Below are positions 4,201 through 39,183 of a DNA stretch of 64,000 nt, one piece after another. The notes beneath the pieces were generated by a model, which saw only the letters and a list, made by a program, of their open reading frames with translations, did not search any database and was not told where the DNA came from. The DNA lies in NCBI GenBank assembly GCA_032718475.1, contig JAUCBJ010007168.1:58386-122385 (forward strand), written 5' to 3'. This DNA is from Nemertoderma westbladi (lineage: Eukaryota > Animalia > Xenacoelomorpha). Every line of letters begins with the position of its first letter. Position 1 is the first letter of the stretch. Made by a program: the position numbers and the translations under genes.

Positions 4201-4898
4201 GTCAGAAAAACAGTGTAGTTCCAAGTTGTCAGGAAATGTACTTTGTAATGGAAAGTAAACCCTGGGTATGGAATAATCCTCTAGCGAAGATAATTCCGCC
4301 TCCCAGGTCTTCCATAAGTCCACTTGGTCTGATGAGATCGGCTCGTCCCATGTTAGTCCATCCTTCCATATACTACGCATATAAATGCGGGCTTGCAGTA
4401 TCACTGGACTGATGAATCCTAACGGATCGAACAATCGGCTCAACTTTGACAAGCATGATCTCTTTGTCAGTGTGTTCTCTTGACTGTCCAGTCTCACTTT
4501 CACTCGAAAGTTGTCTGTGTTTGGGTCCCAAAAGAGCCCTAACACCTTAGTCGTCGGTAGTGGTTCGAACTCTAGGTCTATGTCACCACCTCCACGCTCA
4601 GTCGTCCCGAATGAGTCTACTAATTCGGCACTGTTTGAGGCGAATTTGGTGAGGTTAAAACCTCCGCCCGCTAAGCAGTCCCGTAATTGATGTGCTACTG
4701 TTGTAGCACGTTCTACTGTGTCGCAACTCTGTAAACCGTCGTCTACATAAAAGTCACGCTCCACAATCCTAATTATCTCTGGGTCATACAGGTGTTTCTG
4801 ATCCCTAGCGGCCTGCTTTAGGGCGTACATCGTGCAATTTGGGCTGTCTCTGGCACCGAAAACGCGAACTTGCATTTGGTAAGTCGCCGGTGGTAGAC
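1216..4898 (-). CDS. pol: BEL element 1 gag-pol, 3' part (RT C-half, RNase H, integrase)
   Basis: FYVDD, FSDAS, PRAELQAA, HCPGPQNPADIASRG and DDE integrase motifs. In frame with 6456-11598 once the TTAA insertion is removed. Confidence 0.95.
3120..3560. repeat. In-frame 159-bp tandem repeat (~2.4 copies, 53 aa) plus short PDGQPD repeats between RNase H and integrase
   Basis: aatagggaaactgcggc recurs at ~3137, ~3296 and ~3455; protein unit SNVLTNSKAAVSLLERPSID..PDTLPDVSPDTLLDSRLDILS. Confidence 0.9.
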
Positions 4899-4902
4899 TT
4901 AA

Positions 4903-6455: not shown

Positions 6456-9400
6456 TTAAGTCTCCTTCCGGGTACCAGAGGAACCGCAAACTGTCTCTGT
6501 CTCGCTCTAACGCTCTCACTTGGTGAAACATCGCTTCAACGTCACAAGTAAAAGCTACTTGACGCTGACGGAAGCGCATAATCACCCCCATTAGATAATT
6601 ATTCATGTTTGGTCCATCCATCAACTCACTATTGAGGGACATTCCCTCAAACAGAGCCGCACAGTCGTTGACTACGCGTACTTTGTCTGGTTTATCGGGG
6701 TGTCTCACATAGTGATGTGGCAAGTAATATGTTTGGTCAGTCACTATCTCCGGGTTCGTCATTCGGATAGCGTATCCTTTAGTCAAATACGTCTCCATCT
6801 GGGTGTTGTACTGCAGATGGGCTTTCTCGTCCTTTAATAGACGTTGCCGTATTGAGTGTAGACGTCTCAAGGCTAGTGGATAGTTGTTTATAAGTTTAGG
6901 ACTTTGGCTACGCCATAACATCCCTACCTCATAATGTCCGTCTTTCGTCTGGTGGATAGTATCTTCCATGATCTTCAGAGATTGTTTCTCCTGTTCCGAC
7001 ATACAAGGTTCGTAGCTACCAGGTTCAGCTGTATCTTGTTCTAACCACCTGATAGTCTTCTCCGTTAATTCCTTGTCTAGTACAGCTTGTTCCAACTGAT
7101 GATTTCTCAACGCGTCATCATCGATCTCGACGGGCACTGTTGAGGTTATTGGGGTAGGTAGACTCGCAAGCCTATCATCTGTCGTCGATGGAATCTCTAG
7201 CTGACTCGTCTTCTCCCCAAGTTCTAAACTCCGCTGGTGGGTTAGCTGCTCCTTGTGACTTATCATACTAGTTACACGTCTGTTATGTTTTGTCGACTGT
7301 AGTGTAGTATGGTTCACGTCGTGTGAGAAGGAATGAATTGAATTTGTAGTTAATAAACTACATGTACTCTGTACATCGTCTTCCTCGTCACTTACGTCTA
7401 GTGTGCGCACAGGCGCTCGAGTATACCACCCTATCGGCGTTCTGCAGGCGTATGCGTTTCCCACTACGACTGCCGATGGTCTGGTTTCCCACACCTGATG
7501 TAGGTTGAATTGGTCTGTCCCGATCAGCATTGCTACCGATCTATAATTGACAGGACATTCGGGTACACCAAGGTGTCTGAAATACTTACGGTCCTCTAGA
7601 GATTGTTCCGGCACTGGACCTAGTAGGTTACTAAAGTCCTTCGTGGCCGCAAAGGTTAGATCTCTAAAGGGTAACAAAGACCTCTCCCTCTCGCTGTGCT
7701 GCGATTTTGGAAGAAGAGAGTCTAAGTCCAACTTAACTCGTGTCACTGGTATTGCACGCTGTCCGTGCATACTACTTACTGTATAACTGACGTGCTTACC
7801 TTGTTTAAGATCCGTCACTACGTCAGCTATCTTTTCATCCACGTAGCTATGAGATGAGGCTGAATCTAGAATCGCGTAGATCCTCTTACTCCCCTTTGTG
7901 CCAGTGATCTTAATCGGGATTACACTGAATCCCTTCAGTTGGTCAGTGGTCAGAAGCGCGATCGACGGTTGTTCGTCTCCATTGGAATATTCGTCGTCTT
8001 CTGATTCTTCGTCCGACGATCCGGATTGTTCTGAGAAGCAATCCTCAATATGGGTCACGAAGGTTGGAGTCGTTTTCGATTCTCGTTTTCGGTAAGCCGC
8101 ATCACATCTCGCTGCTGCTTCCGGGTGTTCCCTGGCGAAGCGTTTCGTCGGCGTGTGGCTGTCTGTGTGGAGCAGACCGTCGTGGTTGCGTCCGCAGGAT
8201 GGACAAGTGTCGGTATTTGGGCAATCTTTACGGACGTGTCCGTGTCGCGTACACCGCCAACAAGAGTCCAATGGCCATATTTGCAGCCGTCGTTCTTCCG
8301 AGTTCAACTCGCGAAATTGTCGACAACCTCGTAACTTGTGACCGATATACCGCTTGCCTAGATGCTCGCAGTATTGGCAGCCGCTGAAGTCGGTACCGAG
8401 TTGTTGTCTCGTCTGTTTTGTCCCAATGGGCGCAGATACCCTACTACCGTCCGAGAATTGTCGTGATTCCGTCGGTGTGGTGTAAGTGGCCGTCTTAGTG
8501 GAAGTTGTCTGGGGTTTTTGTCGGTTGGAGGATGGCAATGTGATCCCTTCTGCCACGATGTGCTGGTCGGTGTAGTTAGATCGAGTTTCTACTACCGCCT
8601 CCCTGGATATTAAAAGGTACACATCTTCTAATTTTAAGAATCCTCCCTGCTCTTCTCGCTGGTATTCGACCTTCCTCCACTCCCGACGAAGTCGATGGTG
8701 GAGTCGTCCTATGATCTTTAATAGGACTGTAGGGGTATTCCCGTAATCAAGTTGTCCAATGGATCTTAAAGTTGTGATAGCGTTCTTGATCTCGTCAGCT
8801 AGTTTTAATAAGTCGACGGGTTTAGTGATAGCCCCTCCCTTACAGAGTTCCTCTATTACTGACCTGGCCATACTAACTGTACCTCCGTATATCGAAGTTA
8901 AACGATCGTACGCTAGTTCGAAAGCGTCCGGTACACCGACGAAAGTCTCCGCCAAACGTTTAGGTTCTCCTGACAATGTTTGAAGCAGGTAATTAAACTT
9001 CTCCCGTGATGTAAAGGCGCACACGGCGATCTGGGATTCGATATAGTCTACGAAAGTATGCCAGTGTTTTGAGCTACCGGAAAACTTCGGTGGTTGTTGT
9101 ACCGGCAATCCCTGTCTGGCTGCGAATTTCGCTATCTCCTCTGCAACGTTCAGAGTTTCGCGTCCTTGGTTGGTAACCTTGTTGATATCCCTTCTTGGCG
9201 CTTTTCCCTGATACGATGTGGGGTTTGAAGGTACCGGTCTTTGTGGTTCCTTCGGGTGTCTATTGTGTTCGAATTCGGAATTTCCCGAACTGTCGGTATA
9301 ACCTTCCTCTAGACGTTCCTCGATCTGAGCCAACTTGTTAACAACTGGTCGCAGAATGTCGGCGAACTGTTGTGTACTAATTGCGTCCGTTGGTTGTAAC

Positions 9401-11598
9401 GCCTTCTGTGTTGGTGTATTCTGTGGAGGATTGTCTGCAAAGGAGTTGTCTGAACGCTCGCGTTTGTATTCATCGGCCGCCCCTGTTCTAAATACCTCGC
9501 GTTTCGGGTAATCCGATTCGCTCGAAGTACTACTATCATCCGGATATGGTGGTCGACGTGCTCGCGTTCGTTGCGTCGTTCGAATTCTAACGTCCCGTTT
9601 CGGAACATCGTCCACTGATCTCCGTTGTTCGGTAGGCTCACAAGTCTTCCTCGAAGTTGTAGATTGCGATGTAAATTGGTTGAACGGTCGCGTATCTGTT
9701 CTCCGTTGTTCGGTAGGCTCACAAGTCTTCCTCGAAGTCATAGATTGCGATGCAAATTGGTTGAACGGTCGCGTATCTGTTCTCCGTTGTTCTGTAGGCT
9801 CACAAGTCTTCCTCGAAGTCGTAGATTGCGATGCAAATTGGACCGGTAGTCGAGTAACGGCGTTTGAATCCAAAGGCCTTGTTGGCCTAAACGTCATTGG
9901 GTAAGCGTAGTGTGTAACGGGTTTTGGCGTCAGAGGTGGACTCACCTGTTTAGTCGTCAGTAATACAGGTTCGACTAATAAACTACTACGATCTGTAATC
10001 GGTGGGTTACTTACCTTGACTTTTGGAATGGGCGACGACGTTGCTCTTGGCGGTGTAAACTCGTCCGGAATAACAAACCTGTGTTCCGTCGCACCATGGA
10101 TAGGAGAAATGTTACTACTACCCGCAATCGAAACAGGTTCCTTAGTCGTAACTGGTGCAAACATATGAGTTACCTGTGGGAATCGTTGACACAAGTCCTT
10201 TACTAATTGTCGTTCCCGTCCGGGTGCTCCTACGCTTCCTTCTTTCTTTCGTTCCTGAATTTGGCGATGTCTTACCTCTATCTGGTCCAAGTCATGTCCG
10301 TCTCGAGATCTCATCGATCGATCGCGGGCTTGTAGATCTAGGTCTTCCTTGGCGTTGGCTAATTCTCTCGCCTTCTTCTCGAGTTCGAAACGAAGTTTAA
10401 CTTCTTTCTCGCGTTGTTCCGTTTGTTGTTGTTGCGCCTCGAGTTCCGCTTGTCGTATAGCTGACTGGGCCTTTATTTGCCGTGTCTTCATTTCTGCTCT
10501 GGCTTCTAAAACTAACCGGTTTCTCTCTAACTCCGCCGCTGCCGCTGCCGCTGCCGCTTGTCGCTCTGACTCAGCCGCTGCCGCTGCTGCTGTTTGTTGC
10601 GCAATGTCCAACTCTAACTTTTCCATCTCGGCTGTTTCCAACTCGGCTTGTTCTTGCAGATGGGAGATTCTTGCTATATTTGCAACGCGTAGCTTCTCTT
10701 CCTCTGCAGCTGCTTGTAGCATTAGAAGTTGAGTTTGTTCCTCCCACTCCTGTTGTTGTCTGTAGAGCTGTTGTTGTCGAGCAATTTCTGACGTAGCCAT
10801 ACTTCCCTCGCCGATTTCGCTACGAATACTCACCAGAGATTGATCCAGTATTCCCGGTGCCGATTCGATTCGTACGGGTGAAGTTTCCCTCGTATATTCC
10901 GGCACGGTTTCCAAATCGCCGATGTCTTCGCCGCACATACGTAAGTGGTCCGTCAGATGTTTCAATTGTCCATCCAGTCGGTACAGTTCCTGTTCTTCCT
11001 CGGGCTGTAATAATTCGTCCGAAACTGACTCACCTAACAACTGGTCTGCTTGTTCCTGTTGTATTTGTCTAATCGTCGACTTAAACTGAATCAGTTTCTC
11101 TCTAGCGATCATTAGTTTCTCGAGGATTCTAAGTTGAGTATCCATGTCCTGTCTCTGTCTAGCTAGATCTTGTAGGCCAACTAGATTATCTACGGACTTA
11201 TATACTTTACTCTGTACTCTAACCTGGAGGGTGTAGAATTCGAATCGAGACATCGGAGCGGTCAACCCGTCTAATATGCGTTGGCCTTCTCCAATACTCC
11301 TGGTAATATGCGCCATATAACCACCGACGCTCCTAACAACGCTTTCCTGACTTCCTACTGAACTTACCATGTCCGATTCCCTATATCTAGGTTGCGGAAC
11401 AGTTAGAAAGTCCTCGGTCCTGCCGTCGCCTCGTACTACGGCATCCGGTACTCCCGTTGGATGTACTGGTGACGCACACGGTGTAGGTTCGGTAGGCTCG
11501 CGAGTCTTCCCCTGTTGTTCTTCCGCTGCTGACTTATCCGCGTCACATGAGTCATAGTCAGTAGGTGTATTCTTCGTATAGTCTTGTTTGTCACTCAT
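6456..11598 (-). CDS. gag-pol: BEL element 1 gag-pol, 5' part (coiled-coil Gag, zinc knuckles, aspartic protease, RT N-half)
   Basis: 1733-aa ORF: PPKFSG..W, LLQTLSGEPK, triple knuckle, ILDSAS, YLPHHYV, DVEAMFHQV, LRFLW. The last ~18 aa of the listed ORF are MITE read-through. Confidence 0.95.
9620..9840. repeat. In-frame 81-bp tandem repeat x~2.7 in gag
   Basis: aggctcacaagtcttcctcg at 9634, 9715 and 9796; peptide QFASQSTTSRKTCEPTEQRRTDTRPFN. Confidence 0.9.
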
Positions 11599-23657: not shown

Positions 23658-23692
23658 TGTTCGCGCTTTTAGACCTTTAGCAGTTTAACCCG
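23658..23692 (-). repeat. Residual terminal 35 bp of the element 2 3' LTR
   Basis: tgttcgcgcttttagacctttagcagtttaacccg is identical to 37932-37966. Confidence 0.9.
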
Positions 23693-24917
23693 TAAAGCTA
23701 ATTCCTTCACCGCTTGGACTTGTTGCTGCAATTTGCGTTTCTCTAAACAATCGTAAGTTTCTTTTCCGATCTTTTGCCGAATAGCATCTAACGCGTTTCG
23801 TACAACGCTCTCCTCAACTTCCGTGACAGGTTGTATCGGGTTTAAACCGGGACGATTGTACGGGTTGAACGGCGATATTAGATGCCCGCGTCCCAATCCG
23901 GCTAGATAGGAAGGGCGAATATCTAGCAAGCCCACTACCGGAGTGCCACCGATTAATTGTTCGGGTAACAAAAGATCTTTAAATAGTGAGTACAGTTCAG
24001 GGGGATCCGTTATACTATTAGGATCAAGAGTCTGAGGTCTCACTAAGGAATGAGGAGGTCTGACCGAGTATTCCGGAACTCTGATCATGGGTTTATTTAA
24101 GGATCGTCTGAGTTGAGCGAGCGTAGGTGATACATTGAACAAGTTTCGCTCGAAACTCCCATAAGTATAACGAGTAAAACTGTGTTTAGCGCAACGTCTC
24201 CGCGGATGTTATGTCTTTCGGTTTGCTGGTTGGGTCTAGGGCATTCGTTGCAGTAATACCAAAGACGCACGTCCTGCAGATGAAACGCGGGTGATCGTTC
24301 TCCAGTTTTACAATATTCCTCCATCTGTTCGAAGCTATCTGGAACGACAGGTAGCGGTCGATCGGCGGTAAGATACATCATAGTGAAATAGAGCCGTTTG
24401 AGTTCTATCATAGGATCATGATGTATACCTTGAGGATATCGAGTTTCTAGATTTTGTTGGCTGGCGATGTTGAGATATGTTTCTCTCAAGAATTCCAGAT
24501 ATTCGTTGAAGTCGCTGCGTTTATCCGGCTCTTCAACGTCTTCTCTTTCGAGTCGGTTTCGAATAGAGTTCTCGTGTTCGATTCTCGTTTTATCGTTCCG
24601 ACTCCGATGGGTATGATATTTAAAGAGAACCATTTCCCTTTCGGTGTCTACATCGTCCGTATCGTGTAAATCGATAGGATGGCCAGTAGTTAAGAAGTCC
24701 ATATACGTACCATTACGATGCGTGTAGCGAGCGGTGAATTTTCTATAGTCCAATTCACGCGTGAGTTGCTCCTGGGACATTGGCGGTTCGATATAATGAC
24801 CATCGTCCTCTGTAGTAGTTGGACCAGCGTCGCCGCGTATCAAGCTATCAACAAACGCTTGTAACGGTAGAGGTATCGCTCCCTGATACCAAGATCATCT
24901 TCTATCAACTCAGTCAT
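23693..24917 (-). pseudogene. Accessory ORF2 of BEL element 2 (frameshifted; ORFs 24097-24843 and 23669-24142 are one gene)
   Basis: DFNEYLEFLRETY...DPMIELKRLYFTMMYLTADRPLPVVPDSFEQMEEY...RLWYYCNEC, then after a frameshift at ~24208-24194 RRCAKHSFTRY, in frame with 23669-24142. Plausible ATG at 24917 behind another frameshift. Confidence 0.85.
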
Positions 24918-25739
24918 AGCTGCTATATGAGTTTATCAATATTATAATTAGTTATAATTAGGCTAGCGGGCATCGCTGCCTACCCCTCACACCTCACGGC
25001 CCCCGGACAGCGCAAGATCCTCAGCGCCGATGTACCGTCGTCGCTGTGTTTTTCGCCAACGTAGTAGCTACACAACGACAACGATAACCAGCGCGAGTCA
25101 CTCCACTGTCCGTCCCAAGGGCTTAGATTTACTTCAGGTTCTTACTGCAGAGGTAGGGCTACTTTCACAACTGCGACTAGCTACTGTAAACACACTTTAG
25201 TAGTATCATTCACCTATAAACGCACAAATTCCACACAACTGTCACAAATTGTACACATTCGGGCAATTTGTCCGTTAGTCAAGTGCCTTCCAGAATGCCA
25301 CGTTATTATTATGTATCCTTGGATACTAGCAGTTTGCTATTTATTCCCTATGCTATTCAATGGGGTAAGCTTTCTATTGTTCTTTTAACTGGCTTCTAAT
25401 TCTAGCGTGGTTGTTGCTATGGTGACATTATGGAAAGCTAGCGGTAGAATTAGGGTAATTCCCATGCATACAGATCTGGGATGCTATTTAATAGTAATTC
25501 TTTAATTGTCAATATCCCCTTTATACATGATTTTATGAATTTTATCGGCTATTGACTATATATTGGAGATTCTCGCACACTAATACACTTAATAGGGTGA
25601 ATCTCCGCTCCCATGATCTATTAATTAATGGAATTTTGGGAATGTTATAAATTGTATAAAATGACAATTTATCAAATTCATTAAAAGAGATGAATTTAAA
25701 TTTATTCCCGTAAATTTTATTATTTAATATTAAAACAGA

Positions 25740-26105
25740 CACAATTTTATTCCAGAACATGTCTGGGGACTAGAATCCTTAATTCTATGAAATTTGTCTT
25801 TTTAAGAGTATCGGTAAGTGCTACGATATCTTAATCGACTAGAATTTTAAAGGATCTGAATTTTAACAGATTTGGATTTATAGATTTTCTAGAGTTAATT
25901 TGTAAGTATTCACTCTATGATATTTGTTTGACAGATTTTATAAATATTAAATTATTAATATTTAAGATGGGCACCGATTTATTCCAGAACTTGTCTGGGG
26001 ACGTTAACCACTGATTCTAAAATTTTGTCTTTCAAGTCTATCGGTGGGTGCCGCGATATCTTAATCGACTAGAATTACAGATGGTCAAAAGGTTTAACAG
26101 ATTTA
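25740..26105. repeat. ~120-bp diverged direct repeat (period 232) between pol and ORF2 of element 2
   Basis: attccagaac.tgtctggggac ... cgatatcttaatcgactagaatt starting at 25749 and 25981. Confidence 0.8.
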
Positions 26106-26622
26106 TTTTGCTTTTCACGCTACTGTTAAAGGGACATCACGCTACTATATGTATTATTTAATATACGGTATGAGAGCAATATCGCACGAAGCAATGTCAG
26201 TGAGAAGAGGCAAGTCGTTTCCAAGGTCTACCCAGAGCTTGGTTTAGCCGAGACACGAGGATCTGAACTTTGCATTCCTAATACTCTGCCTACCAATAAT
26301 ACTTGAATATAGTAGGAGCTTCATTGTACTTTAATAAGTACGGACATTTCATCTTACTGTAGTCACGTATTTACAATATGATACGGACAGTAAGGAAAGA
26401 GAAAAATAATTATTTCTCGCCATTGCACTAAACATATAATATAAGTAATTATGTAATAAAACACGAATATATATTGCACTAATGTACTAAATAATCGCTA
26501 AAATAACATTCTACTAAATAAAATTAAAGAAAACGATTATAATAAAATTACATAATAATACATACATAAATATAAAAATAATAAAAATATAAAATAATAT
26601 AGTCACACACCCACTCCAAACT

Positions 26623-29600
26623 TTACGTTAGGGAGTCCCTAGATGTTTGTTGAATTAGGGAGGTGGTCGTGGGAAGAAAATCTTGCCTTCCATAGTTTCC
26701 GGAGAGTTCTCTGTCTCTTTCCAGTAAACATGAACGACCAACTGGGCGATTGAGTTGTTGTGTTTCGAACACAATTCCAGGTTTCTTAAAGTTACGTCGC
26801 ATGACGACAAGTTCTACCGTTCGCACCAAACCATCATCTGAGATATGAGTCTCGATGATACGACCTGTCTGCCACCGCTTACGTGGAAGATCTGATTCCA
26901 CAATAAGGACCATGTCTCCGGCGCTGACGTTTTCTTGCTGCGCAAACCACTTAGTTCGAAGTTGTAGCGTAGGCAGATAATGTTTTTCGAAATGGTCATC
27001 AAAACGACGGGATAACAACTGCATAAGTTGCCAAGTTTGCCGGCAGTATTCGTCTCCGTCCGTGATTTCTGATCGTGGGAGCATGGCTACAGGTTTCTTC
27101 AGTAGGAAGTGCGCGGGTGTTAGCGCTTCCAGGGAATCGGGACTCGATGAGACTGGCATAAGCGGTCTCTCGTTGAGATAGGCGGCGATTTCCTCCATTA
27201 ACTTCCGCAAAAGTTCGTCGGTGAGATACGCGCGGCACGGCACTATAAAGTGAAATGCGGTCTTCACGCTCCTAATTAATCTCTCCCAACTTCCTCCCCA
27301 CCGAGGGGCGTCGGCGGCGTTGAAGGTCCAGCTAGACGCTGTTACCCTTAGCTGATCGTCCACCTGTCTTTGGTTCCAATCTGTGACGTAAGCTTTGATT
27401 TCATTGTTGGCACCAATGAAGTTCATTCCCTTATCAGATCTCACCGTGTTACTAGTTCCAAAGCGAGCGATCTATCGGCGTAAGCTCAGTATGAAGCTGT
27501 TGGTAGATAGATCGTTCACCATATCGAGATGGATAGCTCTACAAGTCATACAGACAAAGATGACACACCATCTCTTGACTATAGTCCTAGCACGATATAC
27601 TTCAATAGGGCCAAATAAATCCACGCCGGTATTAGTAAAGGGTGGTTCATAGAAGCTTACGCGTTCCCTAGGTAATTCTGCCTCTCGCTGTGTTAAAGGC
27701 CTACTGAATGCTTTCCTACAGGGTATGCAGTTCCTAAGAACTTGGTTCATAGCTCTACGGGGTTTATGAAAATAATAGCGAGTTCGAATTTCGCTAAGAA
27801 CTCGTTCTCTACCAGCATGGTAAAGCTTACTGTGAACATCTACAATCATCTTGATTTGTATTTCAAGATTTCTAATGAGTATGGGAAACTTAGTGTCAAA
27901 GGATAATGGAGCATTAGTTAGTCTTCCTCTAACGCGTATTAACCCATCTATCATTGTGCTAGAGAAACGATCCCTTAAGCGCATCTGTGGATTTCTCAAC
28001 AACAGAAAATACTTATCGGAATACTCATAGCATTGCAGGAGTCTCAGTATCTGCTTATTGGTTTCTTCATGCTCCTGGTAACTGATCTTTTCCTTCAGAA
28101 ATCTGTCTGATATCTTGTATTTGGGAAGATCTTTAACAACATGGACCTGCGCAGATGTCAGTGGAGCAGTATCACTAGCGATTTTCTTTCTGGAGTAATG
28201 ATAATGAAAACATCGCTTCAAATATGCAATGGCCTTACAGAGCCGATTCCAGGAGCTATAGTGATGTATCGCTCTTTGCAGGAGGGGTGAGAGTCCCTGC
28301 GAGACGTCTGGTGTTCCAGATTTCCAATCTCTCTGTCTGATTTCCACAACAGTCTTCTTTGTTGCTGGGAATTTTGGATCCAAAGCGTCGTCTCCGGAAA
28401 TGTGCAGTACAGACAGATCTATCACTGGTTTAAATAACTTCGATTTACTCGCCCGGGTTTTAGGTTTGACTTTCTCCGCTCCCTTGGCTTGTCTAATCTC
28501 AGCCGTGGTAAGATGAGGAGGCCATTCATCTTCTTCCTTGCTTAGGAAGTCGGGTCCACCTAACCAGTCTGGAGTATCTATCAGTTCTTGTGGAGTTGCT
28601 CCTCTGGAGGCGATGTCGGCTGGATTAATCGTCCCAGGGCAATGTCTCCATTGATCTATCTTCGTGCGACTAAGTATAATGGCTACTCTGTTGGTAGCGA
28701 AGACGCTGAACTTACAGACTTCATTGGTTATATACTCCAACACGAGTAAAGCATCGGTCCAATAGACAGTTTTCTCCAGTGGATAGTCGATCTGTTCTGT
28801 TACATTCCGGCCGATGGCTGTAGTGTATAGAGCCGCTTTTAACTCTGCTCGAGGAACTTTCAGCTTGTTGTTTATCAAAGCCTTAGAGGTAACCAAGGCG
28901 AGCTTAATTCCATCCGGAGTTTCAACCCTCAAGTAGGATACTATACCTATTCCCATGTTGCTGGCGTCTCCAAACACATGGAGTTGATAGGAATACGTGG
29001 GGAGAACGTGACCAAAATATGAACGGGAAATAATAAAGTTCTCGATGGAAGGTAGAGAATCTTCCCATTTCATCCAATTCTTTAGCAGTTCTCCCTTAAG
29101 TGGATCGTCCCATGAGTGGTTTTCAAGCCACATTTGTTGTACTAAACTCCGAGCAATCAATATAACTGGGCTAATAAATCCCAATGGATCGAAATAAGTG
29201 CTCAGGATACTTAGACAAATCCGTTTAGTTCGAATTGGATTATCTTGCTGTTTTAACTGGAAAAACAGGATATCTCTCTCCGTGTCCCATTTCAAACCAA
29301 GCGTCTTGGTTTCTGGAAGATTGTCTTTGATAAGGTCTAGATCTTTAACTCCTCGGTCTTCTACTGGGATCGATTCCAGAAATTCACTGGAGTTACTGGT
29401 GAATTTAGTTAATCGAAATCCACCTCTTTTCAAGCACTTTACCGTTCCCTTGGCGACATCAATGACTTCTTCCACCGATGGGAGGGATTTTAAATTGTCG
29501 TCTATGTATATATCCCGTTTGATGTTGTCGATAACCGCTTTAGAGAAGGCGTCCCGGTTGTCATCAGCAGTGGTGCTCACTACTGAGCAGGCGTTTGAGG

Positions 29601-32600
29601 AGCTCGAGATGATCCCAAAAGCCTGGATGGTCATCCAGTACTCCACTGGTTTCTGGTTGAGGTCTCCTTCAGGCCACCACAGAAATTGTAGGCTATCTCG
29701 ATCCCTATCCAGCGCCTTAACTTGTAAAAACATGCCTTCTAAATCCGAAGCAAAAGCGATCGAATATTGTCGTAATCTTAAGAGTATTCCCAACAAGGAT
29801 TGGAGTAAGTTGGGTTCCGCCAACAACTCTGAGTTAAGGGATTGGCCCATGTAAAGGGCGGAGCCGTCAAATACTACCCGGACTTCGTTGGGTTTACCGG
29901 GTTTGGGAACGTAATGATGTGTTAAATAGTACGTTCTCTCAGTTATGGGTGTTTCTTCCAGTACTCGCTCCGCATATCCCTTGTCAATGAATTTCTTCAG
30001 CTGGGTCTTGTACATCTCCTTCGCCGAAGCATTTGCCGTAAGGTGTCGATGTAGTTGCGCGATTCTCTTCTCCGCCAAGGGTCGGTTATTTATAAAATTG
30101 GGTTCTCTCCGTCGGAAAGGCAGGCCAATCTCATACCTACCTTGATCTTTAAGAAAACGTGTGGTCGTTTCCTGTATCTGCTTGGCTCTTTCTTCTTCTA
30201 CCGATAGGGCCTTATCGTAGGAATTAGGCTCTATAGCTTCTTGAGTAAAGAATCGTACGGCATGTTCATCGCAAGTCTTCGTTGTTGTAACGATCTATCA
30301 CTTCATTCAGTTCGTCGCTGTAATCGACTTGTCCCGCTGGATGGATGAGGTGACACAGGTTCACTTGGTTTTTCCAAGTTTCATTTTCCGTAAGGAGGTC
30401 GATGGTATTCTCCTCGTCGAATAGTTGATGAATATCGTCATTATCTGAGGAGTATGGTGTTCCCTCAGGTGTATCGTCTCCCTCACTGATTTCCTCTTCC
30501 CATTCACTCACCTGGTGGACTTGATCTTTAGGTGGCCTTTCCATGAGTGTCCTACGGGAAGGTCCAGTAAAGTACCAACCTACTCTAGTTCTTCCCGCAT
30601 AGGATTGCAGTGGTTGCGGTTGAGCAGGCCGTTTCTCTAATGTCTCCAACGCCTCATGCGCATTTTGGCCGATGAGTATTTGTACCCCTGGGTAGTCGGT
30701 GTTGAATCTAGGTATATCATGCTGCTGGGTGAAATCATCTTCATCCCAGTTATAAGGTTCCACTTGGCTGGTAGCGAAGTTCTTTATCGCCACCATTTTT
30801 ACTGACCTTACACTGTGTTCTCCTAGTTTATCCTGGGGGGTGGACAACGCGCCTACATAGTAGTTTGTAGCTACTGTAGATTTCCAAACCTGCATAATTC
30901 CTGAAAGGTTCAACTTAGTTCGGAACTTGGGTTGTCCAGCAAAAATGTCTTTGGCTAGTTCTTTGTCGATGAATGTTCCTGTGCTGCCGGAGTCAAGGAG
31001 GGCGTTCACTATATAGCTCTTTTGTAACCCGTGGACTCTCAACTGCACTACGGGAAATTCTCGGATTCCTACGTTGGAAGTTGGCGCTTTCCAAGATGGT
31101 TGTCGATCAGGAATAGTTAGGGGGAGCTCACTATCAGTTTCAGTCTCATACGTAAGTGCTCGATACACTGCGGTGTTTATCATATAGCAGGATTCGTTTT
31201 CGTCGGAGAATTTGTCCGTATAAAATCCTTCCATCGCAGAACTGTGGTCAGTGTCGTTCACATCACTGAATTGGACATGTAGTTCGGACTCACTTACCTG
31301 ACTCGGGCTGTTTCTTTCAAATTCGGTGTGCAACAAGATATGATGTTTCGCGCCGCACTTAGCGCACCTAGCATCTGAGTAACAGGACCGCCGTTGGTGT
31401 CCTCGTCTGAGACAATTATAACACAACCGCTTATCCCACATGACATCACGTCTATCCTTAAGGGATTTCTTCAAGAATTCATCACATACACTTAAACGAT
31501 GGGGCCCGTCGCACAGCGCACATTTTGGTTTGATGCTACTTACTTTAACTTGGGTAGTGTTGTGCACACTCGTTCTTTCCTCGGGCTTTCTTCCATGAAT
31601 TATCTTAGGAGACGTAGGAGGAGTTTTTGTTACCTGTTCTCTCCTGTCACTTGTTCGAGACTTAAATTTACTTATGTCTTTAGGTGTTTTGTTGACATAG
31701 TAAGACCTTTTGGTGTCTTTCCCGCTGTTCTCCTCTTGAGAGGTTTGGCATTCGCCGTTGTCTGTATAACACACTGGTGTTACCTTTCTCCTAGAAACGG
31801 GTTTTACACTCACCTTATTTTCCGGTGTCTTCTCTCGGGACTGCTTTAGGAGCTGTAATTTCACCTCTCCATTTAAGAATGACATGAGATCATCCATGGT
31901 AGGGTCTCTTTGTTGTTGTTCCATCATATATAGAACTCTTTTGTCCCAACGAGTACCCACTCCACCCTTTGGCAAGGTAGATGCTACAGCTCCAATAACC
32001 ATAGAACTCTGATATTCATGAGACTTACCTAGCCAATCTAATTGTCTACAGATCTCCTGGATCTCATCGGAAAATTCTATAATCCCGCTGCTAAGAAACT
32101 TTCGGGGCGCTACCAATTTCGCATACAAATACCTAGCTATGTTAGTCCTATTACCATACCTGATGTTCAGTGTATCCCAAACTTGTCTTAATCCATCTGG
32201 ATGTCCAATAAACTTTAACGCCATTAACTTGGGAGATCCTTCCAAGCACTCGATGAGGAATCTAAGTTTCTCTCCGTTAGATAGTATGTTATCTTTATAA
32301 TATTCATTAAAAGGTAACCATTTCATCTCATCTCTGTTGAACTTGACGATCTCTCCCACCTTTACCGCTTGACGGGCTTCGGTTCTAGCCATTTGATGCG
32401 TAAAACTTTCTTGGGCCATCGTATTATTTAATATCGAGTTATCGGTATATAAATTTCTCGGATTATGATCAGGTCTATATGGAATATCATTATCAACAGG
32501 TTTATAATTACCCTTTATAGGGTTTATTATAGGAGTTTCTACTTCACTAGCAGTATAGATGCGTGTAGGCTCCACACCTTGCGCATGAAATACTTCAGAC

Positions 32601-35012
32601 CTAACAGGTTGACACATTGTTACAGGGGGTGGTGGTATGGTATACCCCTTTGTATATTTACTAATTTATCGCGTTCTAACGCGATACTCTGCTGCACTTC
32701 TTGCAGTTCTAACCTACCCTCTCTTACTGTTCCCTTTAACTGCTGCACAGTCCCTTCCATTTCTCGGACGTGCTGGGAGGAACGTATGCGCTGTTCCTCC
32801 AATTGTCCGAGCAAGAGATCCATCCACCGCCGTCCCTCATCCACCCACTCGACTGCCGAAGCGGGAGCCGCCAACATAGTAGCGGGTAGACGAGGGACGA
32901 CGGGCGATAAATCGTTGATGTCTCGCTCGGCGTCCAAGACTGGGACTGTTTCTGCAGCTATTCTATTGGGCACAGGTTATTTAGTACTGTGCAAAGGGAA
33001 TTTAGAGTTAGGTTCTGGAAGTACAGGGGTCTCTATCACAGAAGGGGTGGCTTCAAGAACAGGCCCAATTATTTCAGGCTCATCTACTATAGTAGGAAGT
33101 CTTTCTACTCTAATAGTTTGGTCTGTGGGTTCTGTACTACCTAAGTCTACACTAGCTAGTTGCCTTCTCACAGCTGGGGGCAAATTAGGCAATTTCTGAC
33201 GGTGGGGTGTTCTTCTACGTCTGCTGGAACGAGATCTATTTCCTCCGCCTTCAGGATCTGTTGTATCGCCTTCATCAGATGATGTAAAGCCCTGTCTCTC
33301 GGGAGTAGATCGACCTATCAGCTGCATCTGACTAGCTGTTATATGTTTATTTATGTAGTCTTGCTTCTCTTGAAGATTTTCCAACTCTAGTTGGGTTGTC
33401 TCTTCAGATGCCTTCCGTTTTGCTTCTACCACTGCCTCTGCCGCAGTTCTTTCTGCTTCTGCCGCTCCTGCTTTTCTTTCTGCCTCTGCCACTGCCGCTT
33501 TTCTTTCTGCCTCTGCCACTGCTGCTTTTCTTTCTGCCTCTGCCACTGCAGCCTTTCTTTTCACTTCTGCCGCTGCCGCTGTTGCTGCCTTTCTGTCTTC
33601 TATTTGTTGTTCTTCTATTTTTTTCTTCCTGTTCCCTAACGATGCGGATTCTTTCATCAAATTTAGCTCGATCCGCTTCTAACCTTTCCGCATCTAAAGA
33701 GTCTAGCACAAATTTGGCTTCCTCACTATTAGGGTGAAGTCCAGCTAGCCGTCTCCTTAACTCTTTGTCACCTATAAATCGTTGATAGTCTGACAGATAG
33801 ATGTCAATGGCATCCTTCTTCGGAGGTTTCTCTGATGTCGGTTCGCTTTCCACTTGAGAAAAGGTAGCGTCTGTTGATTCTCCGTGGGTTGAGCGCTCAG
33901 TTAGCTGAATTTTCCATTGGGTTGTTCCTTGGACTTTAAGACTCACTCGTTGGAACCAAGTCTTTACGGCAACTTGCAACGACGTGTCTTGGCTTCTCTT
34001 CAAGGCTTCCTCAAAGGCCGAAAGGATTAGTCTGATTCTTAGAATGCGTTCTCGAACTTGATAAAGCAGCTCTCCCTGCTCTTGAGGTCCGTGAGGTTGT
34101 TGAAACAGGTGTTCCTCTAATCGCTCCAAAGAGCTGAAGAATCCCTGGACATATCCTGCTGCCGACCTCTTCCACACAGCTGGATCTCGAGTGTCCCTTA
34201 CTACTCCCATCCTATATAAGTCCTCCCAGGCAGCCTCTTCAAGGCTTCCTCAAAGGCCGAAAGGATTAGTCTGATTCTTAGAATGCGTTCTCGAACTTGA
34301 TAAAGCAGCTCTCCCTGCTCTTGAGGTCCGTGAGGTTGTTGAAACAGGTGTTCCTCTAATCGCTCCAAAGAGCTGAAGAATCCCTGGACATATCCTGCTG
34401 CCGACCTCTTCCACACAGCTGGATCTCGAGTGTCCCTTACTACTCCCATCCTATATAAGTCCTCCTAGGCAGCTTTCGATAAGTTAAACGGGAGTCCGGG
34501 TCCGGGAAAGTTCCATTGCTCCTCGACAATAGACCTTAATTCCTCCATCATGTATACTGCATAACTCTCCCTGGCCGATCGCTAACTTCTTGCCCAATCG
34601 ATTTGATGTTCTTCCACAGCAATCAATACTCTCGTGAGTACAGCCTCAGGAAGAATGAGAAGCGGATCAGAATAAACTGCTTCTGCCATCTTTGCTCCGA
34701 TCTCCGGTGTCAACTCTACAGTATCTGTACTACTGGAGCGATCGGACCGCTGAGAAATAAGTTCTCGGCTCGGGTGTTGCTGGTGCTGCTGTTTAACAGC
34801 TGCCTCTTGGTCCCGCTTGACTTGAGCCCGCATGCCTATAATAGACCTACGGTGCTTGACTAGCCTAGGGTCTGATACTACTACTAAAGGGATGACCTTT
34901 CTTACAGTAGGAGGGGACTTGGACTTGGTCTAGGATGTTCTACACTCTTGTCTGAGTCGCAGACTGTTTTTTCTAGCAGACTATCTGACAGATTTTGCTT
35001 TGTGTCAGCCAT
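26623..35012 (-). pseudogene. gag-pol: BEL element 2 gag-pol, broken by stops and frameshifts
   Basis: ATG at 35012 (MADTKQ...CDSDKS, cf. element 1 MSDKQ...CDADKS); knuckles CALCDGPH, CYNCLRRGH, CAKCGAKHHILLH; LLDSGS; IYIDD; FGDAS; GVDLFGP; SDKGMNF; WERLIRS, spread over about 9 ORF pieces. Confidence 0.93.
33996..34473. repeat. 239-bp near-perfect tandem duplication in element 2 gag
   Basis: caaggcttcctcaaaggccg at 34001 and 34240; one visible mismatch. Confidence 0.92.
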
Positions 35013-35048
35013 GTTTGATTGTACAGTTGAATGCCTACTACTATAACA

Positions 35049-35409
35049 GTAATAACTACTACTACATGCACACATCTCCAACCAGACACTATATAACATT
35101 GGAGGTTTCTCATTGGTTCCCCCAAGCTTGACACTAGAACAAAATCGCCTCCGCTTTGCAGGACATTGCTTTCGCCGTGAGGACCAGCCAGTGCATAATC
35201 TTGTACTTTGGCAGCCTCATGGAGTGAATAAGCATGGTGCACAGCCCATGACTTTCTTGAGACGCATCTTAAAGGACACTGGCCTTAAAGATGCTGATGA
35301 TCTAACAAATGTCATGGGTGATAGGGAGTTGTGGCGGTGCAATTTTGTTGACAAGCCGGCACAGCATTCTTAAAAATGCAGCTGCAATGCAGCATGCCGA
35401 TCCTAGTAG
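35049..35409 (+). mobile_element. 5'-truncated RTE-clade LINE insertion just upstream of element 2 gag
   Basis: RLRFAGHCFR...NLVLWQP...DRELWR; 3' end matches ~54830-55095; TSD TACTACTATAACA at 35036-35048 and 35410-35422. Confidence 0.88.
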
Positions 35410-36856
35410 TACTACTATAACAACAGTTAAAGCAAGACTAGTAATTCAATATCAACTGTAAGCCTAGTGATCAATTACAATTACTGATACCGTTACTCAA
35501 TGTAACGCGATATATATAGTATTAGAATACCGGTATACACTTATAGTATATATATAAGCACTGCCACAAACTATGTTTAGTCACAGAATACCGGTATATA
35601 ATTTCAGCCTAAATTTATATAGATATATATAATAAGCCGACCTCAAATACCGGTATACAGCATACACTTATAGTATATATAAGTATGATTAAAGACCAGA
35701 GTTAATTACAGAATACCGGTATATAATTTCAGCATAAATTTATATAAATAAATATAATAAGCCTACTATAAATACCGGTAATGTCAATTATTTTATAATA
35801 ATTGAATTTCTGAATTTAAAGGTTACTTTCTTTTACTCTATTACTGTTATCAAGCAGTAGCCCATCTGCTATTAAGACCTAATTGATGTATAACAGGCCT
35901 ACTATTTTATAAATCGGTTTGAGTTGATTTATAATATATTTATATATACCCGTATAATGGGTTTTGTCAATATTGAAACAAATGTTATTATTTCTAGTTA
36001 AGGGGGTCACTACACAGAAGCTAAACGCTCTCAGTGAAGTGCTACTTGTTGGACACTAAAACAAATAATTCTACTTGACTAAGTAAATTATTACTACAAA
36101 TTACGTACAATTACAGGGTGAGATTACAATCTCTAAATAAACACAAAAAATTACAAGTACAAATTTTAGGGTAATTTTTACAGGGAATTCTACAAACCAG
36201 TCTAACAAGGAGTTAGAATTTCTGGTTATTACCAACGGGCAGGATACTACGGTATTTGAAAATAATTAAGCAGTAGTAAATACACTGTGTTGTCCAGATA
36301 AGAAATTACCACCGTCTGACGACTTATAGTCTTTTTGCTATACAGCACTATAAGTACTACGTATGTACCCGGAGTGTCTCTACCTACCTGGAAGTTAATT
36401 ACCGCAGCCTACCATAGCTAACGTGCCTATTAACCACTTTACAACACAAATATACTGCCTACAAACTAATTACCTTCGGAAAGTACTGTACACTAAACCC
36501 TAGATTAGGTACAAATACTTGTATAACAAATAACCAGCAGTTAAATATACTTGTACAGCTAAAGGAACCACGGTATCTGCTGGAGTGACTAGCGCATAAA
36601 ATCACCAGTCTTTACCTACGCCGAGCAGCCCTGATGTAGTACCGGGGTTAATTTAACTATAACGGTATGTATAACAAGCACAATTACTGAAGGAATAAAC
36701 TTGGGGAATTTGAAGGTTGCGATTACTTGCATAAACTCTGAATCATAAATATTAGACTACTATTAGACTTATTACTACACAAACAAAATACAGACCAAAT
36801 GCTGGCAGATTACTGTCAGGCCTAAATAAACTACAGTATATGCAGACTCCGAAGTT

Positions 36857-37588
36857 GTGGGGCGAGCCACGAAGTTGGTTTGCATAAATTGACCCACCCC
36901 CTAACAGTGTCAATTCGATAAGGCTCTGCCAACTTCGTGCTGCGCGAAGTCCCCACTTCGTGTTAGTTAGTATGCGTTCTAACCTAGTAGTACGACTTAT
37001 TCTTTCGGGGAGGGGGGGGGGTGATTTACCTTACTACACTGGCTGCCCCCACGTTCCTAACTAGCACTTTATCGGACCTACACTCTACACAAAGTGGGGA
37101 CTTCGCGCAGCACGAAGTTGGCGGAGCCTTAGCGAATTGACACTGTTAGGGGGTGGGTCAATTTATGCAAATAGTTGTCGTTGTCACGTTGGCCTTCTAG
37201 CGGCAGACTGGAGAACTGCAGATGGATCATTGAAAGTCACAGCTAATGGTCTAATACATATCTGCCAAGTTTCAGCTTAAACGGATTAAAAGCAAAGAAA
37301 TGGGAGGGCATTTAATGTTTAGACATGTGGCCCTCTAGCGGGAGACCATTGCACTGATGGTGTCTGAAAGTCTCTCAAAAATCTCAACTTTTGCTCATAT
37401 TGATACCTACAAATTTTCAACTTGGCAGCTTTAAATCCGACAAAGTTATTAGCATGTCAAAATCGTAACGACGACGACGACGACGACAACGACGACGACG
37501 ACGACGACGACAACTATTTGCATAAATTGACCCACCCCCTAACAGTGTCAATTCGCTAAGGCTCCGCCAACTTCGTGGCTCGCCCCAC
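36857..37588. mobile_element. Two oppositely oriented copies of a Helentron/HINE-like or MITE element (internally deleted 36857-36956; full 37094-37588)
   Basis: Long subterminal inverted repeat cacgaagttggcggagccttagcgaattgacactgttagggggtgggtcaatttatgcaaa, terminal hairpin cttcgcgcagcacgaag and (ACG)n microsatellite at 37468-37510. Confidence 0.75.
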
Positions 37589-37931
37589 ACACACTGCAAT
37601 CTCTCGACTCAACAGCAACCAGACAACAATCAGCCTACAAATTATTTATACAATCTGAGCAGGCTTACACGCCTTCTGCTCAATATTACTCTTACAGATA
37701 AATAAAACTGACAGAAGTAAGTAAAATCCCAATAAAAACCAGGGCTGCAGTCCCTGATTAAATATCAAACCTACGGGTATATAATTATCAAAATCTAATA
37801 ATACTGATGTACCTGTACTGCTGTAAGTACCGGTTCTGGTAGTTATGTAGTTAGGCCTACAGGTTACCGGTCGACCGGTACTTTCGACTTTATTGCCTAC
37901 GTTGCAATAAAGAAACTAAAATAACTGTTAT

Positions 37932-39178
37932 TGTTCGCGCTTTTAGACCTTTAGCAGTTTAACCCGCTAATTTTAGGTGTCTTCTAGTTTATAAATCGAC
38001 TTTAGCCTATAACAAGTATTTGTTGCATATAAGATATAAAGTTACACTAGCCGAAGCCAGCCTATGCGCGACCATTCACCCACTGTTAAGGGAGACTGGA
38101 TTCGGAGGCTCTGACCTTATTGCGGTGTAGACTTACGGTACTATTCGATTGATCGTTAATATATAATCTCTGACAAATATTATTTATTTTCGGGAAATAT
38201 TAACAGTTCCTTTAGGACGTGGCGCTCTAAGTATGTAAACAGAGTTATGACTTACACTAAACACAATGGGATGGCTAGTGATTTTCGTATAAAGCGCATT
38301 CTTTAGGAAATGCTTTGTTATCTGTCACACTCATGCACACTACCGCACACTGCTGCACACTGATCTGCTGACCTTCACTGAATTTGATCATATATAAAGA
38401 GAATAGCAACCGACAAATGTAGGGATTATGAAATAGCATTCAATTCACTCAAAAACCACTATAATGTAAGTCGCAATTGCTACAGGTAACCGGTCTCTCT
38501 AACTATCATATACTATATATACTATATATACTATATATATATCTTGATATACTATCAAGAAGATTGGGGTTTTATGATCATTTATCGATATTCTCCAAAT
38601 ATAACAACATATCCATCAACTTCTAACAATTAATAACCGACAGTGAATAGCAGTAAAATAATGCGGTGAAAGGTATGTATAGTATTATATATTATGGTTT
38701 GCTGAGCCGTGTCAGGTGTCAGGTAAGATAACAGTTATACGTTCCTATAATCAAAGCCGTCGAATGTTTTGCTAAAGTCTGAAACTAAGAATAATTCCAA
38801 AGCCGATGTTCTAGGCTCAGGAAAAAGGTAAACAAAGACCGTCATGCATTGCGCGATTTCCCATAGGCTTCTGTACAATATAAAATCAAAATCGCCCTGA
38901 TTGGTCGAGCGAGCCGAACAAAGAGAGTTAAAAGCTCCACATTGACATCAAATCAGCTGATAGATTTCGTCATCGGAACTATACTGTATTAAGAGTATTT
39001 GGCGCATTGCGGCATAAAATGGCTTGTTATGTCCGCTAAAGTACACATACAGAAAAAATGGCTTTTTATGTCCACTAAAACACCTACACAGTAAGAAAAC
39101 GGCTTTTTATGTCCGCTAAAACACCTACAGAGTACTTTGCGGGGAGAATGACTAGTTATATCCGCAAAAGCCTTTACA
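37932..39178 (-). repeat. 5' LTR of BEL element 2 (1247 bp)
   Basis: Sense TGTAAAGG...CGCGAACA; homologous to 23658-23692 and 62912-64000; ~38-bp repeats at 39015-39130; CCAAT ~38900. Confidence 0.9.
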
Positions 39179-39183
39179 GCCAA

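What the first reader, a model, noticed from the sequence alone, without database searches (positions are those of the whole stretch)
23693..24917. Second ORF2 copy: a frameshift hides the zinc motif and fakes a TM segment
Seen: after CNEC the listed ORF drifts into TVLLVILMGV, but the homologue of element 1 RCSNH..RY (RCAKH..RY, Cys at 24193) lies in the frame of ORF 23669-24142. That frame is closed by TAA at 24211-24209, so the shift is at 24208-24194. The joined protein has an acidic N-terminus, the conserved core, C2CH, a Pro-rich region and a helical end. This predicts what the off-window part of element 1 ORF2 should resemble.
Basis: seen in the sequence. Interest (0 to 1): 0.7.

Follow-up and report, generated by a model that had tools for sequence, protein, structure and literature searches.

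The report
Orphan zinc-finger gene in BEL/Pao retrotransposons
Two distantly related jumping genes in this animal genome carry the same extra gene, which matched nothing in the libraries searched and is broken in this copy by two frame slips and a deletion; it likely encodes a soluble zinc-binding helper, predicted to act on the element's own RNA, rather than an envelope protein.

Summary
The ORF lies inside a BEL/Pao-type LTR retrotransposon (23658-39178, 5-bp target duplication) after integrase, and is homologous to the same-position ORF of element 1 (E 5e-11). The CxxH half of the zinc motif is in the next frame and the hydrophobic tail is out-of-frame. Other copies in three studies differ in length at 24208-24210, and copy-to-copy changes fall on third codon positions in both predicted frames (12 of 15; 24 of 34), so this is one selected gene with a lesion. 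No homologue or fold was found. No signal peptide or membrane segment occurs in the parts held, so it is not Env-like. Best guess (about 0.35): a Rev/CERV-like nuclear factor made from a spliced RNA. In passing: the element lacks a tRNA primer site and carries an 11-base self-primer signature, already noted elsewhere in this scan.

The parts
23658..39178 (-). Element 2: decayed BEL/Pao-type LTR retrotransposon, 15,521 bp, termini TG...CA
   Evidence: 5-bp duplication at 23653-23657 and 39179-39183; an uninterrupted copy of the host repeat at 43497-43501 shows the empty site
37932..39178 (-). 5' LTR, 1247 bp
   Evidence: ends defined by the target duplication and by the 35-base match to 23658-23692; 73% like a second LTR at 62912-63601
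23658..23692 (-). last 35 bases of the 3' LTR, fused directly to the extra ORF by a deletion; supplies the false stop at 23671-23669
   Evidence: 100% match to 37932-37966; loose ends at 23692 in 18 and 13 contigs, and long contigs that go on differently
26623..34249 (-). gag-pol of element 2 in pieces (two in-frame stops, three frame changes, a 239-bp duplication)
   Evidence: Pfam DUF1759, Peptidase_A17, Integrase_H2C2, DUF5641; frames; duplication D10
24918..26622 (-). 1.7-kb non-coding spacer between integrase and the extra ORF, high-copy like the rest of the element
   Evidence: covered by contigs in every bin in runs X1, X3, X5; 6 of 34 folding windows with z under -3
24999..25112 (-). 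long RNA stem-loop just upstream of the extra ORF
   Evidence: z = -4.97, 0 of 200 shuffles; not found at the same place in element 1 (z = -0.54)
24873..24917 (-). extra ORF, N-terminal piece from the ATG at 24917, up to the first frame break near 24872
   Evidence: three-frame translation; length difference at 24872 in 14, 10, 2 and 1 contigs of X1, X3, X4, X5
24211..24872 (-). extra ORF, acidic linker and conserved helical core ending in CxxC (24252-24241)
   Evidence: homology to element-1 ORF2; 12 of 15 listed variable places at third positions
24208..24210 (-). second frame break (the finding)
   Evidence: length difference in contigs of X1, X3, X5 and loose ends at 24209/24210
23693..24208 (-). 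extra ORF, 3' part: CxxH (24193-24182), basic stretch, Pro-rich linker, helical segment, cut at 23692
   Evidence: 24 of 34 listed variable places at third positions, 25 synonymous of 35 changes, no stop
24139..24195 (-). spurious hydrophobic segment read in the wrong frame
   Evidence: hydropathy peak 1.70; no match to the element-1 tail in this frame
1..555 (-). element 1 extra ORF, unbroken as far as the window goes, with CxxC-x23-CxxH (bases 111-19)
583..615 (-). splice-acceptor-like site upstream of the element 1 extra ORF (branch motif, pyrimidine run, AG at 586/583)
   Evidence: the only 2 of 25 YAG sites in the spacer that pass my rule; inferred, no RNA seen
1216..11598 (-). gag-pol of element 1, interrupted by an insertion at about 5023-6396
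37921..37931 (-). first 11 bases after the 5' LTR: no TGG, exact complement of 38738-38728
   Evidence: 16 of 14,202 internal 11-mers have a complement in the LTR
38728..38738 (-). candidate self-primer site in the LTR, also kept in the related LTR at 63675-63665

Best explanation
The region is a damaged copy of a real third gene of a BEL/Pao-type retrotransposon, lying after integrase and kept under purifying selection, whose product is likely a soluble zinc-binding accessory protein that is predicted to be made from a spliced RNA and would help the element's unspliced genomic RNA leave the nucleus, as Rev does for HIV and CERV for Cer1. Shown: position inside the element, homology between two diverged elements, one reading frame under selection on both sides of the break, three copy lesions, no membrane segment in the parts held. 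Inferred: zinc binding by CxxC..CxxH, splicing, nuclear location, RNA binding, export. Odds: anatomy about 0.9; nucleic-acid-binding accessory protein of some kind about 0.65; export role about 0.35.
For: Inside the target duplication. Same place and strand in elements whose Gag is 27%, RT/RH 43% and integrase 41% identical; ORF2 core 40% over 91 aligned residues. Third-position bias 12 of 15 (p 3e-4) and 24 of 34 (p 1e-5); wrong frames 1 and 2 of 15, 3 and 7 of 34. All four candidate zinc ligands are in both elements. Net charge +10 over the 60 residues that start at the CxxH. An ORF 0.7-1.7 kb after the pol stop needs its own message; element 1 has an acceptor-like site 30 bases upstream. 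A long stem-loop lies upstream of element 2's ORF, where a spliced message would lose it. Precedent: Cer1's non-env ORF after pol is part of a spliced, Cys-finger, nuclear export protein (PMC10309623).
Against: No homologue, family or fold ties the protein to any function; models are low-confidence (pLDDT 38.5 and 47.2). Element 2's nearest AG sites have weak pyrimidine runs (7 and 6 of 15). The stem-loop is not shared with element 1. NLS- and NES-like strings are short, common and not at matching places. CERV's cysteines are spaced differently and Cer1 is not a BEL/Pao element. The share of depth with the length difference at 24208 is 0.6% in X1 and 1.0% in X3 (48% in X5): clipped short contigs explain this, but other copies may share the window's form. 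The true C-terminus is unseen. The variant counts use only the rows the tool printed (40 of 224, and 10 more from 40 of 564).
Confidence: 0.4

Rival explanations
1. The protein is an anti-silencing factor or trans-activator: the zinc finger binds LTR DNA, chromatin or a host defence protein, and the acidic N-terminal region activates or recruits.
For: Acidic N-terminal region (net -10 over the first 90 residues of the 5' part) plus zinc motif and basic stretch; very high copy depth of the family; nuclear accessory proteins are known in other LTR elements (MDG1 sORF1; Grande GENE23).
Against: No THAP or other DNA-binding family hit; the N-terminal region is poorly conserved between the two elements and varies in length between copies (joint 24681-24890, weak: short sides).
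Confidence: 0.3
2. It is a membrane or transmission protein whose anchor lies in the C-terminus that this copy has lost.
For: It sits where env sits in belpaovirids; the real end is missing.
Against: No hydrophobic N-terminus in either element, hydropathy peaks 0.07-1.29, 0-1 N-glycosylation motifs per piece, no Env hit in Pfam, PDB or viral folds; far longer than sORF2/FAST proteins of 63-107 residues.
Confidence: 0.1
3. The break at 24208-24210 is an assembly error, or the whole set of breaks is.
For: No listed long piece crosses the site in the window's form (table 8: the 3 listed pieces that cross it have one gap each); the reads behind the window were not seen.
Against: The copy also has two in-frame stops, a nested MITE, a LINE fragment and a large deletion, the usual marks of real decay. 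It changes nothing about the gene family.
Confidence: 0.12
4. The frame change is programmed, or the two ORFs are separate genes.
For: The two frames overlap (24097-24208); the 5 variable places in the overlap do not decide between them (1 vs 2 third positions); low depth share of the length difference in X1 and X3.
Against: Element 1 has CxxC and CxxH in one frame; other copies differ in length at the site in three studies; no slippery heptamer in 24211-24194.
Confidence: 0.03

Closest known systems
Belpaoviridae / BEL-Pao LTR retrotransposons (ICTV profile, PMC8742986, whole text read)
   Same: LTR-gag-pol order PR-RT-RH-IN, Pao-type Pfam domains, TG...CA ends, 5-bp duplication, a third gene between pol and the 3' LTR
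   Different: the third gene is not env-like; no 18-nt tRNA primer site; 15.5 kb with insertions against 4.2-10 kb; clade not assigned because no reference sequences were at hand
CERV of C. elegans Cer1 (PMC10309623; abstract, passages and section 9 read)
   Same: non-env sense ORF between pol and the 3' LTR, lineage-restricted, cysteine finger, helical regions
   Different: Cer1 is a different LTR group; CERV joins gag-frame exons to the ORF, has C193/C195/C200 spacing and a G-protein-like domain; sequence homology was not tested; export function is shown for CERV and only inferred here
Env-bearing BEL/Pao elements: Tas, Cer7 (PMC554778, passages), Atlas virus (PMC9094657, search listing only)
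   Same: third ORF at the same position
   Different: those are glycoprotein fusogens; no signal or membrane segment here in the parts held
MDG1-group sORF1 and sORF2 (PMC11952523, passages)
   Same: accessory ORFs of animal LTR retrotransposons; sORF1 is nuclear
   Different: short ORFs of Metaviridae; sORF2 is a 63-107-residue membrane protein; no C2CH motif reported in the passages seen
Extra ORFs of bdelloid and plant LTR elements (PMC5408684 abstract; PMC7264820 parts 1-2 of 3; PMC6317226 passages)
   Same: captured third ORFs of mixed, often unknown function are common
   Different: those named are esterases, exonucleases, env-like or antisense ORFs; none matches this anatomy
THAP (C2CH) zinc finger (spacing recalled, not from a call)
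   Same: ligand order C, C, C, H
   Different: 23 and about 16 residues between the pairs against about 35-53; no Pfam THAP hit
Tf1/Tj1 self-priming (PMC4600332 and PMC6317226, passages)
   Same: first bases after the 5' LTR pair with a site inside the LTR; no tRNA site
   Different: BEL/Pao-type element; the site lies 807 bases before the LTR end and the transcript start is unmapped

Membership tests
Belpaoviridae (BEL/Pao) | Gag and Pol with PR-RT-RH-IN order and Pao-type domains | tested here: met
   DUF1759, Asp_protease_2 (weak), Peptidase_A17, Integrase_H2C2, DUF5641 in order
Belpaoviridae (BEL/Pao) | LTRs of 0.2-1.2 kb with target duplication | tested here: met
   1247-bp 5' LTR, 35-base 3' remnant, 5-bp duplication
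Belpaoviridae (BEL/Pao) | 18-nt primer site complementary to tRNA-Arg or tRNA-Gly | tested here: not met
   no TGG after the LTR; hence filed as BEL/Pao-type variant, not as a textbook member
Belpaoviridae (BEL/Pao) | polypurine tract before the 3' LTR | not testable with these tools
   that region is deleted in element 2 and off-window in element 1
Belpaoviridae (BEL/Pao) | RT phylogeny with reference elements | not tested
   integrase tree held only window and metagenome rows; E1 and E2 join on long branches
Env / fusogen third ORF | N-terminal signal or anchor | tested here: not met
   hydropathy peaks 0.07 (element 1), -0.56 and 0.69 (element 2 N-terminal pieces)
Env / fusogen third ORF | C-terminal membrane anchor | tested here: inconclusive
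   none in 24208-23693 (peak 1.29), but the true end is lost
sORF2/FAST-like | 63-107 residues with a central membrane segment | tested here: not met
   about 400 codons, no membrane segment
Rev/CERV-like export factor | non-env sense ORF between pol and 3' LTR with a Cys finger | tested here: met
Rev/CERV-like export factor | made from a spliced mRNA | tested here: inconclusive
   acceptor-like site good in element 1, weak in element 2; no raw RNA reads
Rev/CERV-like export factor | nuclear location and requirement for genomic RNA export | not testable with these tools
   needs cell work
Rev/CERV-like export factor | sequence or fold homology to CERV | not tested
   no tool returned the CERV sequence; fold models too poor
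THAP domain | C2CH with long spacer and Pfam THAP match | tested here: not met
   spacer 23 residues in element 1, 47 bases in element 2; no hit; spacing rule recalled
Tf1-type self-priming | 10 or more bases starting 0-5 bases after the 5' LTR complementary to a site in the LTR (criterion of PMC6317226) | tested here: met
   11 bases at offset 0
Tf1-type self-priming | the complementary site is the 5' end of the transcript | not testable with these tools
   no start-site data; the nearest TATA-like string (38691) lies downstream of the site

The most novel reading that the evidence does not exclude
A 'complex' BEL/Pao lineage: tRNA-independent, self-primed elements that carry an old Rev-like regulatory gene with a new C2CH zinc-finger fold, which binds a long stem-loop in the pol-ORF2 spacer to export unspliced genomic RNA. 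It would be a non-env regulatory gene of a kind not listed in the ICTV profile of Belpaoviridae, and an independent origin of the Rev/CERV solution.
Probability: 0.25. Interest if true: 0.75.

Novelty: new variant of a known kind. Interest (0 to 1): 0.45.

Why it matters
The frame break itself is ordinary decay, but it hides a real gene that annotation would miscall as two ORFs, one with a membrane anchor, and so as env-like. The ICTV profile lists only gag, pol and env for this family. A soluble zinc-finger accessory gene kept by two deeply split elements points to a regulatory layer (RNA export or counter-silencing) not described there, and gives a testable protein family. Extra ORFs of unknown function are common in LTR elements generally, which limits the surprise until a function or fold is shown.

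Tried and rejected
Homologue searches, all blank: 5.8-billion-protein set with the 5' part (31 candidates), the two-sequence profile among longer proteins (3239 candidates) and the 3' part (90 candidates); 1.84-billion representatives with element-1 ORF2 gave 1 hit at E 5.6e-4, a repetitive protein without the motif, rejected; PDB sequences; Pfam, PHROGs, NCBIfam; ESM Atlas; viral and metagenome contigs. These collections are thin in animal transposon proteins, and Repbase, Dfam and GyDB could not be searched, so the blanks do not prove novelty. Guilt by association: 79 BEL/Pao loci found with the integrase; 0 of 79 hold an ORF2 relative (best E 2); the long ORFs after integrase in those with enough flank are mostly Gag of a following copy; in the 6 loci with a defined 3' LTR only 612-837 bases separate integrase from the LTR end. 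Structure: pLDDT 38.5 and 47.2 (the third row of the alignment was partly misplaced); fold searches gave nothing at E 0.001. Rfam 0 hits; no tRNA. Expression: no RNA holder listed. Run X6 laid 0 contigs. Element 1's 5' LTR and primer site could not be defined. No complex prediction was sent: no partner claim is made. Literature: ten searches listed no paper on a non-env zinc-finger ORF or on self-priming in BEL/Pao; the library lacks most subscription papers and Repbase Reports, and no supplements were read (additional files 1 and 6 of PMC3118150 hold BEL/Pao sequences that may include this ORF).

Full report
Setting. The window is animal DNA rich in repeats, with a fibrinogen-domain gene; no whole genome is held. 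It has two BEL/Pao-type retrotransposons on the minus strand (Pfam DUF1759, Peptidase_A17, Integrase_H2C2, DUF5641). Element 1 runs from gag at 11598 to integrase at 1216, then an extra ORF from 555 off the window edge. Element 2 has broken gag-pol at 34249-26623 and the extra ORF of the finding.

Boundaries. Element 2 spans 23658-39178. It sits in a host repeat whose uninterrupted copy at 43497-43501 shows the empty site; the same five bases flank both ends. So the ORF is part of the element. The 5' LTR is 37932-39178. The 3' LTR survives only as its last 35 bases, 23658-23692, identical to 37932-37966.

The observation. Every stated feature is present. Element-1 ORF2 matches the 5' part at 34% over 98 columns, E 5e-11, and no shuffle of 1000 came near (68 vs 129). 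The element-1 tail after CxxC matches only the frame of ORF 23669-24208 (6 of 1000 shuffles as high). The hydrophobic stretch at 24195-24139 is the only 19-residue window above 1.6, and it is out of frame; the true frames peak at 0.69 and 1.29, element 1 at 0.07.

Other copies. Six public runs hold part of the stretch, from 4 studies. Laid contigs show a very high-copy family: summed depth of 1e5 to 2e6 along the element in X1 against 133 just outside it (not a copy number). A length difference maps to 24208-24210 in 11, 6 and 3 contigs of X1, X3, X5 (three studies), with loose ends at 24209/24210 in 30, 21 and 4 more; X6 laid nothing. Its share of depth is 0.6%, 1.0% and 48%; short contigs are clipped at such a site, so this is no allele frequency, but I cannot exclude that some other copies share the window's form. 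All 3 listed pieces that cross the site carry one gap, as do the 2.

Selection. Among the variable places that the tool printed (40 of 224 rows; 10 further rows, 24408-24781, from the 40 of 564; rows outside the two frames or repeated were left out), 12 of 15 in the 5' part and 24 of 34 in the 3' part are third positions of the predicted frames (p 3e-4 and 1e-5); the other frames give 1 and 2 of 15, 3 and 7 of 34, the last with 4 stops. Places where the window alone seems to differ (over 95% of depth) show no bias (2 of 6), those polymorphic among copies do (22 of 28). The 5 places in the overlap zone do not decide. Both halves are therefore one coding gene selected during transposition, and this copy has decayed since insertion.

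(i) The ATG at 24917 opens a third frame that stops at 24842-24840; a second length difference lies at 24872 in 14, 10, 2 and 1 contigs of four runs. (ii) At 23692 the ORF runs straight into the LTR end; 18 and 13 contigs have loose ends there, and records of 365, 802 and 730 bases go on unlike the window for about 160, 400 and 390 bases. The stop at 23671-23669 is LTR sequence. The rest of the gene, the polypurine tract and most of the 3' LTR are deleted. (iii) gag-pol has two in-frame stops and three frame changes, so the finding is one lesion among many.

What the protein is. No sequence, profile, language-model or fold search found a relative, and 0 of 79 other BEL/Pao loci hold it. These sets are thin in animal transposons. 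Anatomy: variable acidic N-terminal region, conserved helical core, CxxC-x23-CxxH in element 1 and a shorter spacer (47 bases) in element 2, a basic stretch (+10 over 60 residues), a Pro-rich linker and a helical segment (helices from low-confidence models). The core is as conserved (40% of 91 residues) as RT/RH (43%) and integrase (41%), more than Gag (27%); the two integrases join on long branches, 1.29 and 1.15 changes per site, a join the tree program flags as unsure. The gene is thus old in this lineage.

How it likely works. An ORF 0.7-1.7 kb behind the pol stop needs its own message. Element 1 has a branch motif, pyrimidine run and AG 30 bases before its ATG, the only 2 of 25 YAG sites in the spacer to pass; element 2 has branch motifs but weak pyrimidine runs. 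Element 2 has a long stem-loop just upstream (z -4.97), not shared by element 1. An element that splices must also export unspliced RNA. The nearest precedent is Cer1: its non-env ORF after pol is part of CERV, a spliced, nuclear protein whose Cys finger is needed for genomic RNA export (PMC10309623). I commit to this reading at about 0.35; anti-silencing or trans-activation is close behind (0.3); a membrane role through the lost C-terminus is 0.1. All steps beyond the anatomy are inferred.

Comparison with what is known. The ICTV profile gives belpaovirids gag, pol and sometimes env, an 18-nt tRNA primer site and 4.2-10 kb; the BEL/Pao survey mentions only env as an extra gene in the passages seen. 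Extra ORFs are common elsewhere. This element fits BEL/Pao by its Pol domains, fails the primer-site feature and has a non-env third gene: a new variant of a known kind. It is not Env, not sORF2/FAST and not THAP on the features tested. Passages of PMC6238403, PMC3601003, PMC8220671, PMC2774666 and PMC12451622 added nothing on this ORF.

Side result: priming. After the 5' LTR there is no TGG; the first 11 bases are the exact complement of 38738-38728, a site kept in the related LTR (16 of 14,202 internal 11-mers do this). This meets the self-primer criterion of PMC6317226. In metagenome loci, 12 rows had an end defined by two copies; 2 (L031, L041) were matches of coding sequence and were dropped; the other 10 form 6 families, none with TGG, with complements of 9, 9, 9, 7, 10 and 5 bases and different sequences. 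After seeing earlier finding e1-7811049 I tested splicing: the complement grows to 11-14 bases across a GT..AG junction in 5 of those 6 families (controls 0-1 of 300 each), but not in L065 or in element 2, whose 11 bases are unspliced. Against: the motif in element 2 is nearly palindromic, lies 807 bases from the LTR end, and has no TATA-like string upstream. The scan had already noted self-priming BEL/Pao elements in other genomes, so I do not count it as new here.

Verdict. Observation confirmed; interpretation partly supported. The break is ordinary decay of a real, orphan, non-env accessory gene. Interest 0.45; 0.75 if the Rev-like role holds.

Noticed in passing
window 37921-37931 and 38728-38738; related LTR 63665-63675: No tRNA primer site after the 5' LTR of element 2; the first 11 bases pair exactly with a conserved site in the LTR (self-primer signature).
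   Followed up: yes
L002:4419, L012:105, L026:55, L028:1384, L044:53 (5' LTR ends) and their 3' LTRs: In 5 of 6 metagenome BEL/Pao families the primer-site complement grows from 5-9 to 11-14 bases across a GT..AG junction inside the LTR, as earlier finding e1-7811049 describes; L065 has 10 bases unspliced.
   Followed up: partly
L009, L013, L018, L019, L034, L036, L041, L045, L051, L057, L077: Gag of a following BEL/Pao copy starts 0.6-2.3 kb after integrase on the same strand: tandem copies or collapsed assemblies.
   Followed up: no
window 24681-24890: A joint that skips about 69 codons in frame in the acidic N-terminal region is seen in runs X1, X3, X4 (short sides, weak); element 1's N-terminus is shorter by a similar amount.
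   Followed up: no
window 25550-26100: Spacer holds a 165-bp direct repeat (25711-25873 vs 25941-26104, 76%) and several well-folding windows.
   Followed up: partly
window 62912-63700: Second LTR of the same family, 73% like element 2's 5' LTR; probably solo.
   Followed up: partly
window 36856-37589 and 35056-35419: A nested inverted-repeat (MITE-like) element and a piece of a LINE (like 54822-55109) inserted in element 2's long 5' leader.
   Followed up: no
window 33996-34473: 239-bp tandem duplication, 99.6% identical, in gag of element 2.
   Followed up: no
window 5023-6396; 3109-3585; 9615-9857: Element 1: an insertion of 163-bp repeats splits RT; in-frame tandem repeats of 159 bp (pol) and 81 bp (gag) enlarge the polyprotein.
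   Followed up: no
window 17251-18369: Fibrinogen C-terminal domain ORF (E 5e-46) directly behind a short ORF with a hydrophobic stretch: a membrane-anchored fibrinogen-related gene, possibly one gene with a break; it lies beside a large fold-back repeat at 15784-17085.
   Followed up: no
window 52649-54565: Decayed LINE with endonuclease and RT pieces.
   Followed up: no
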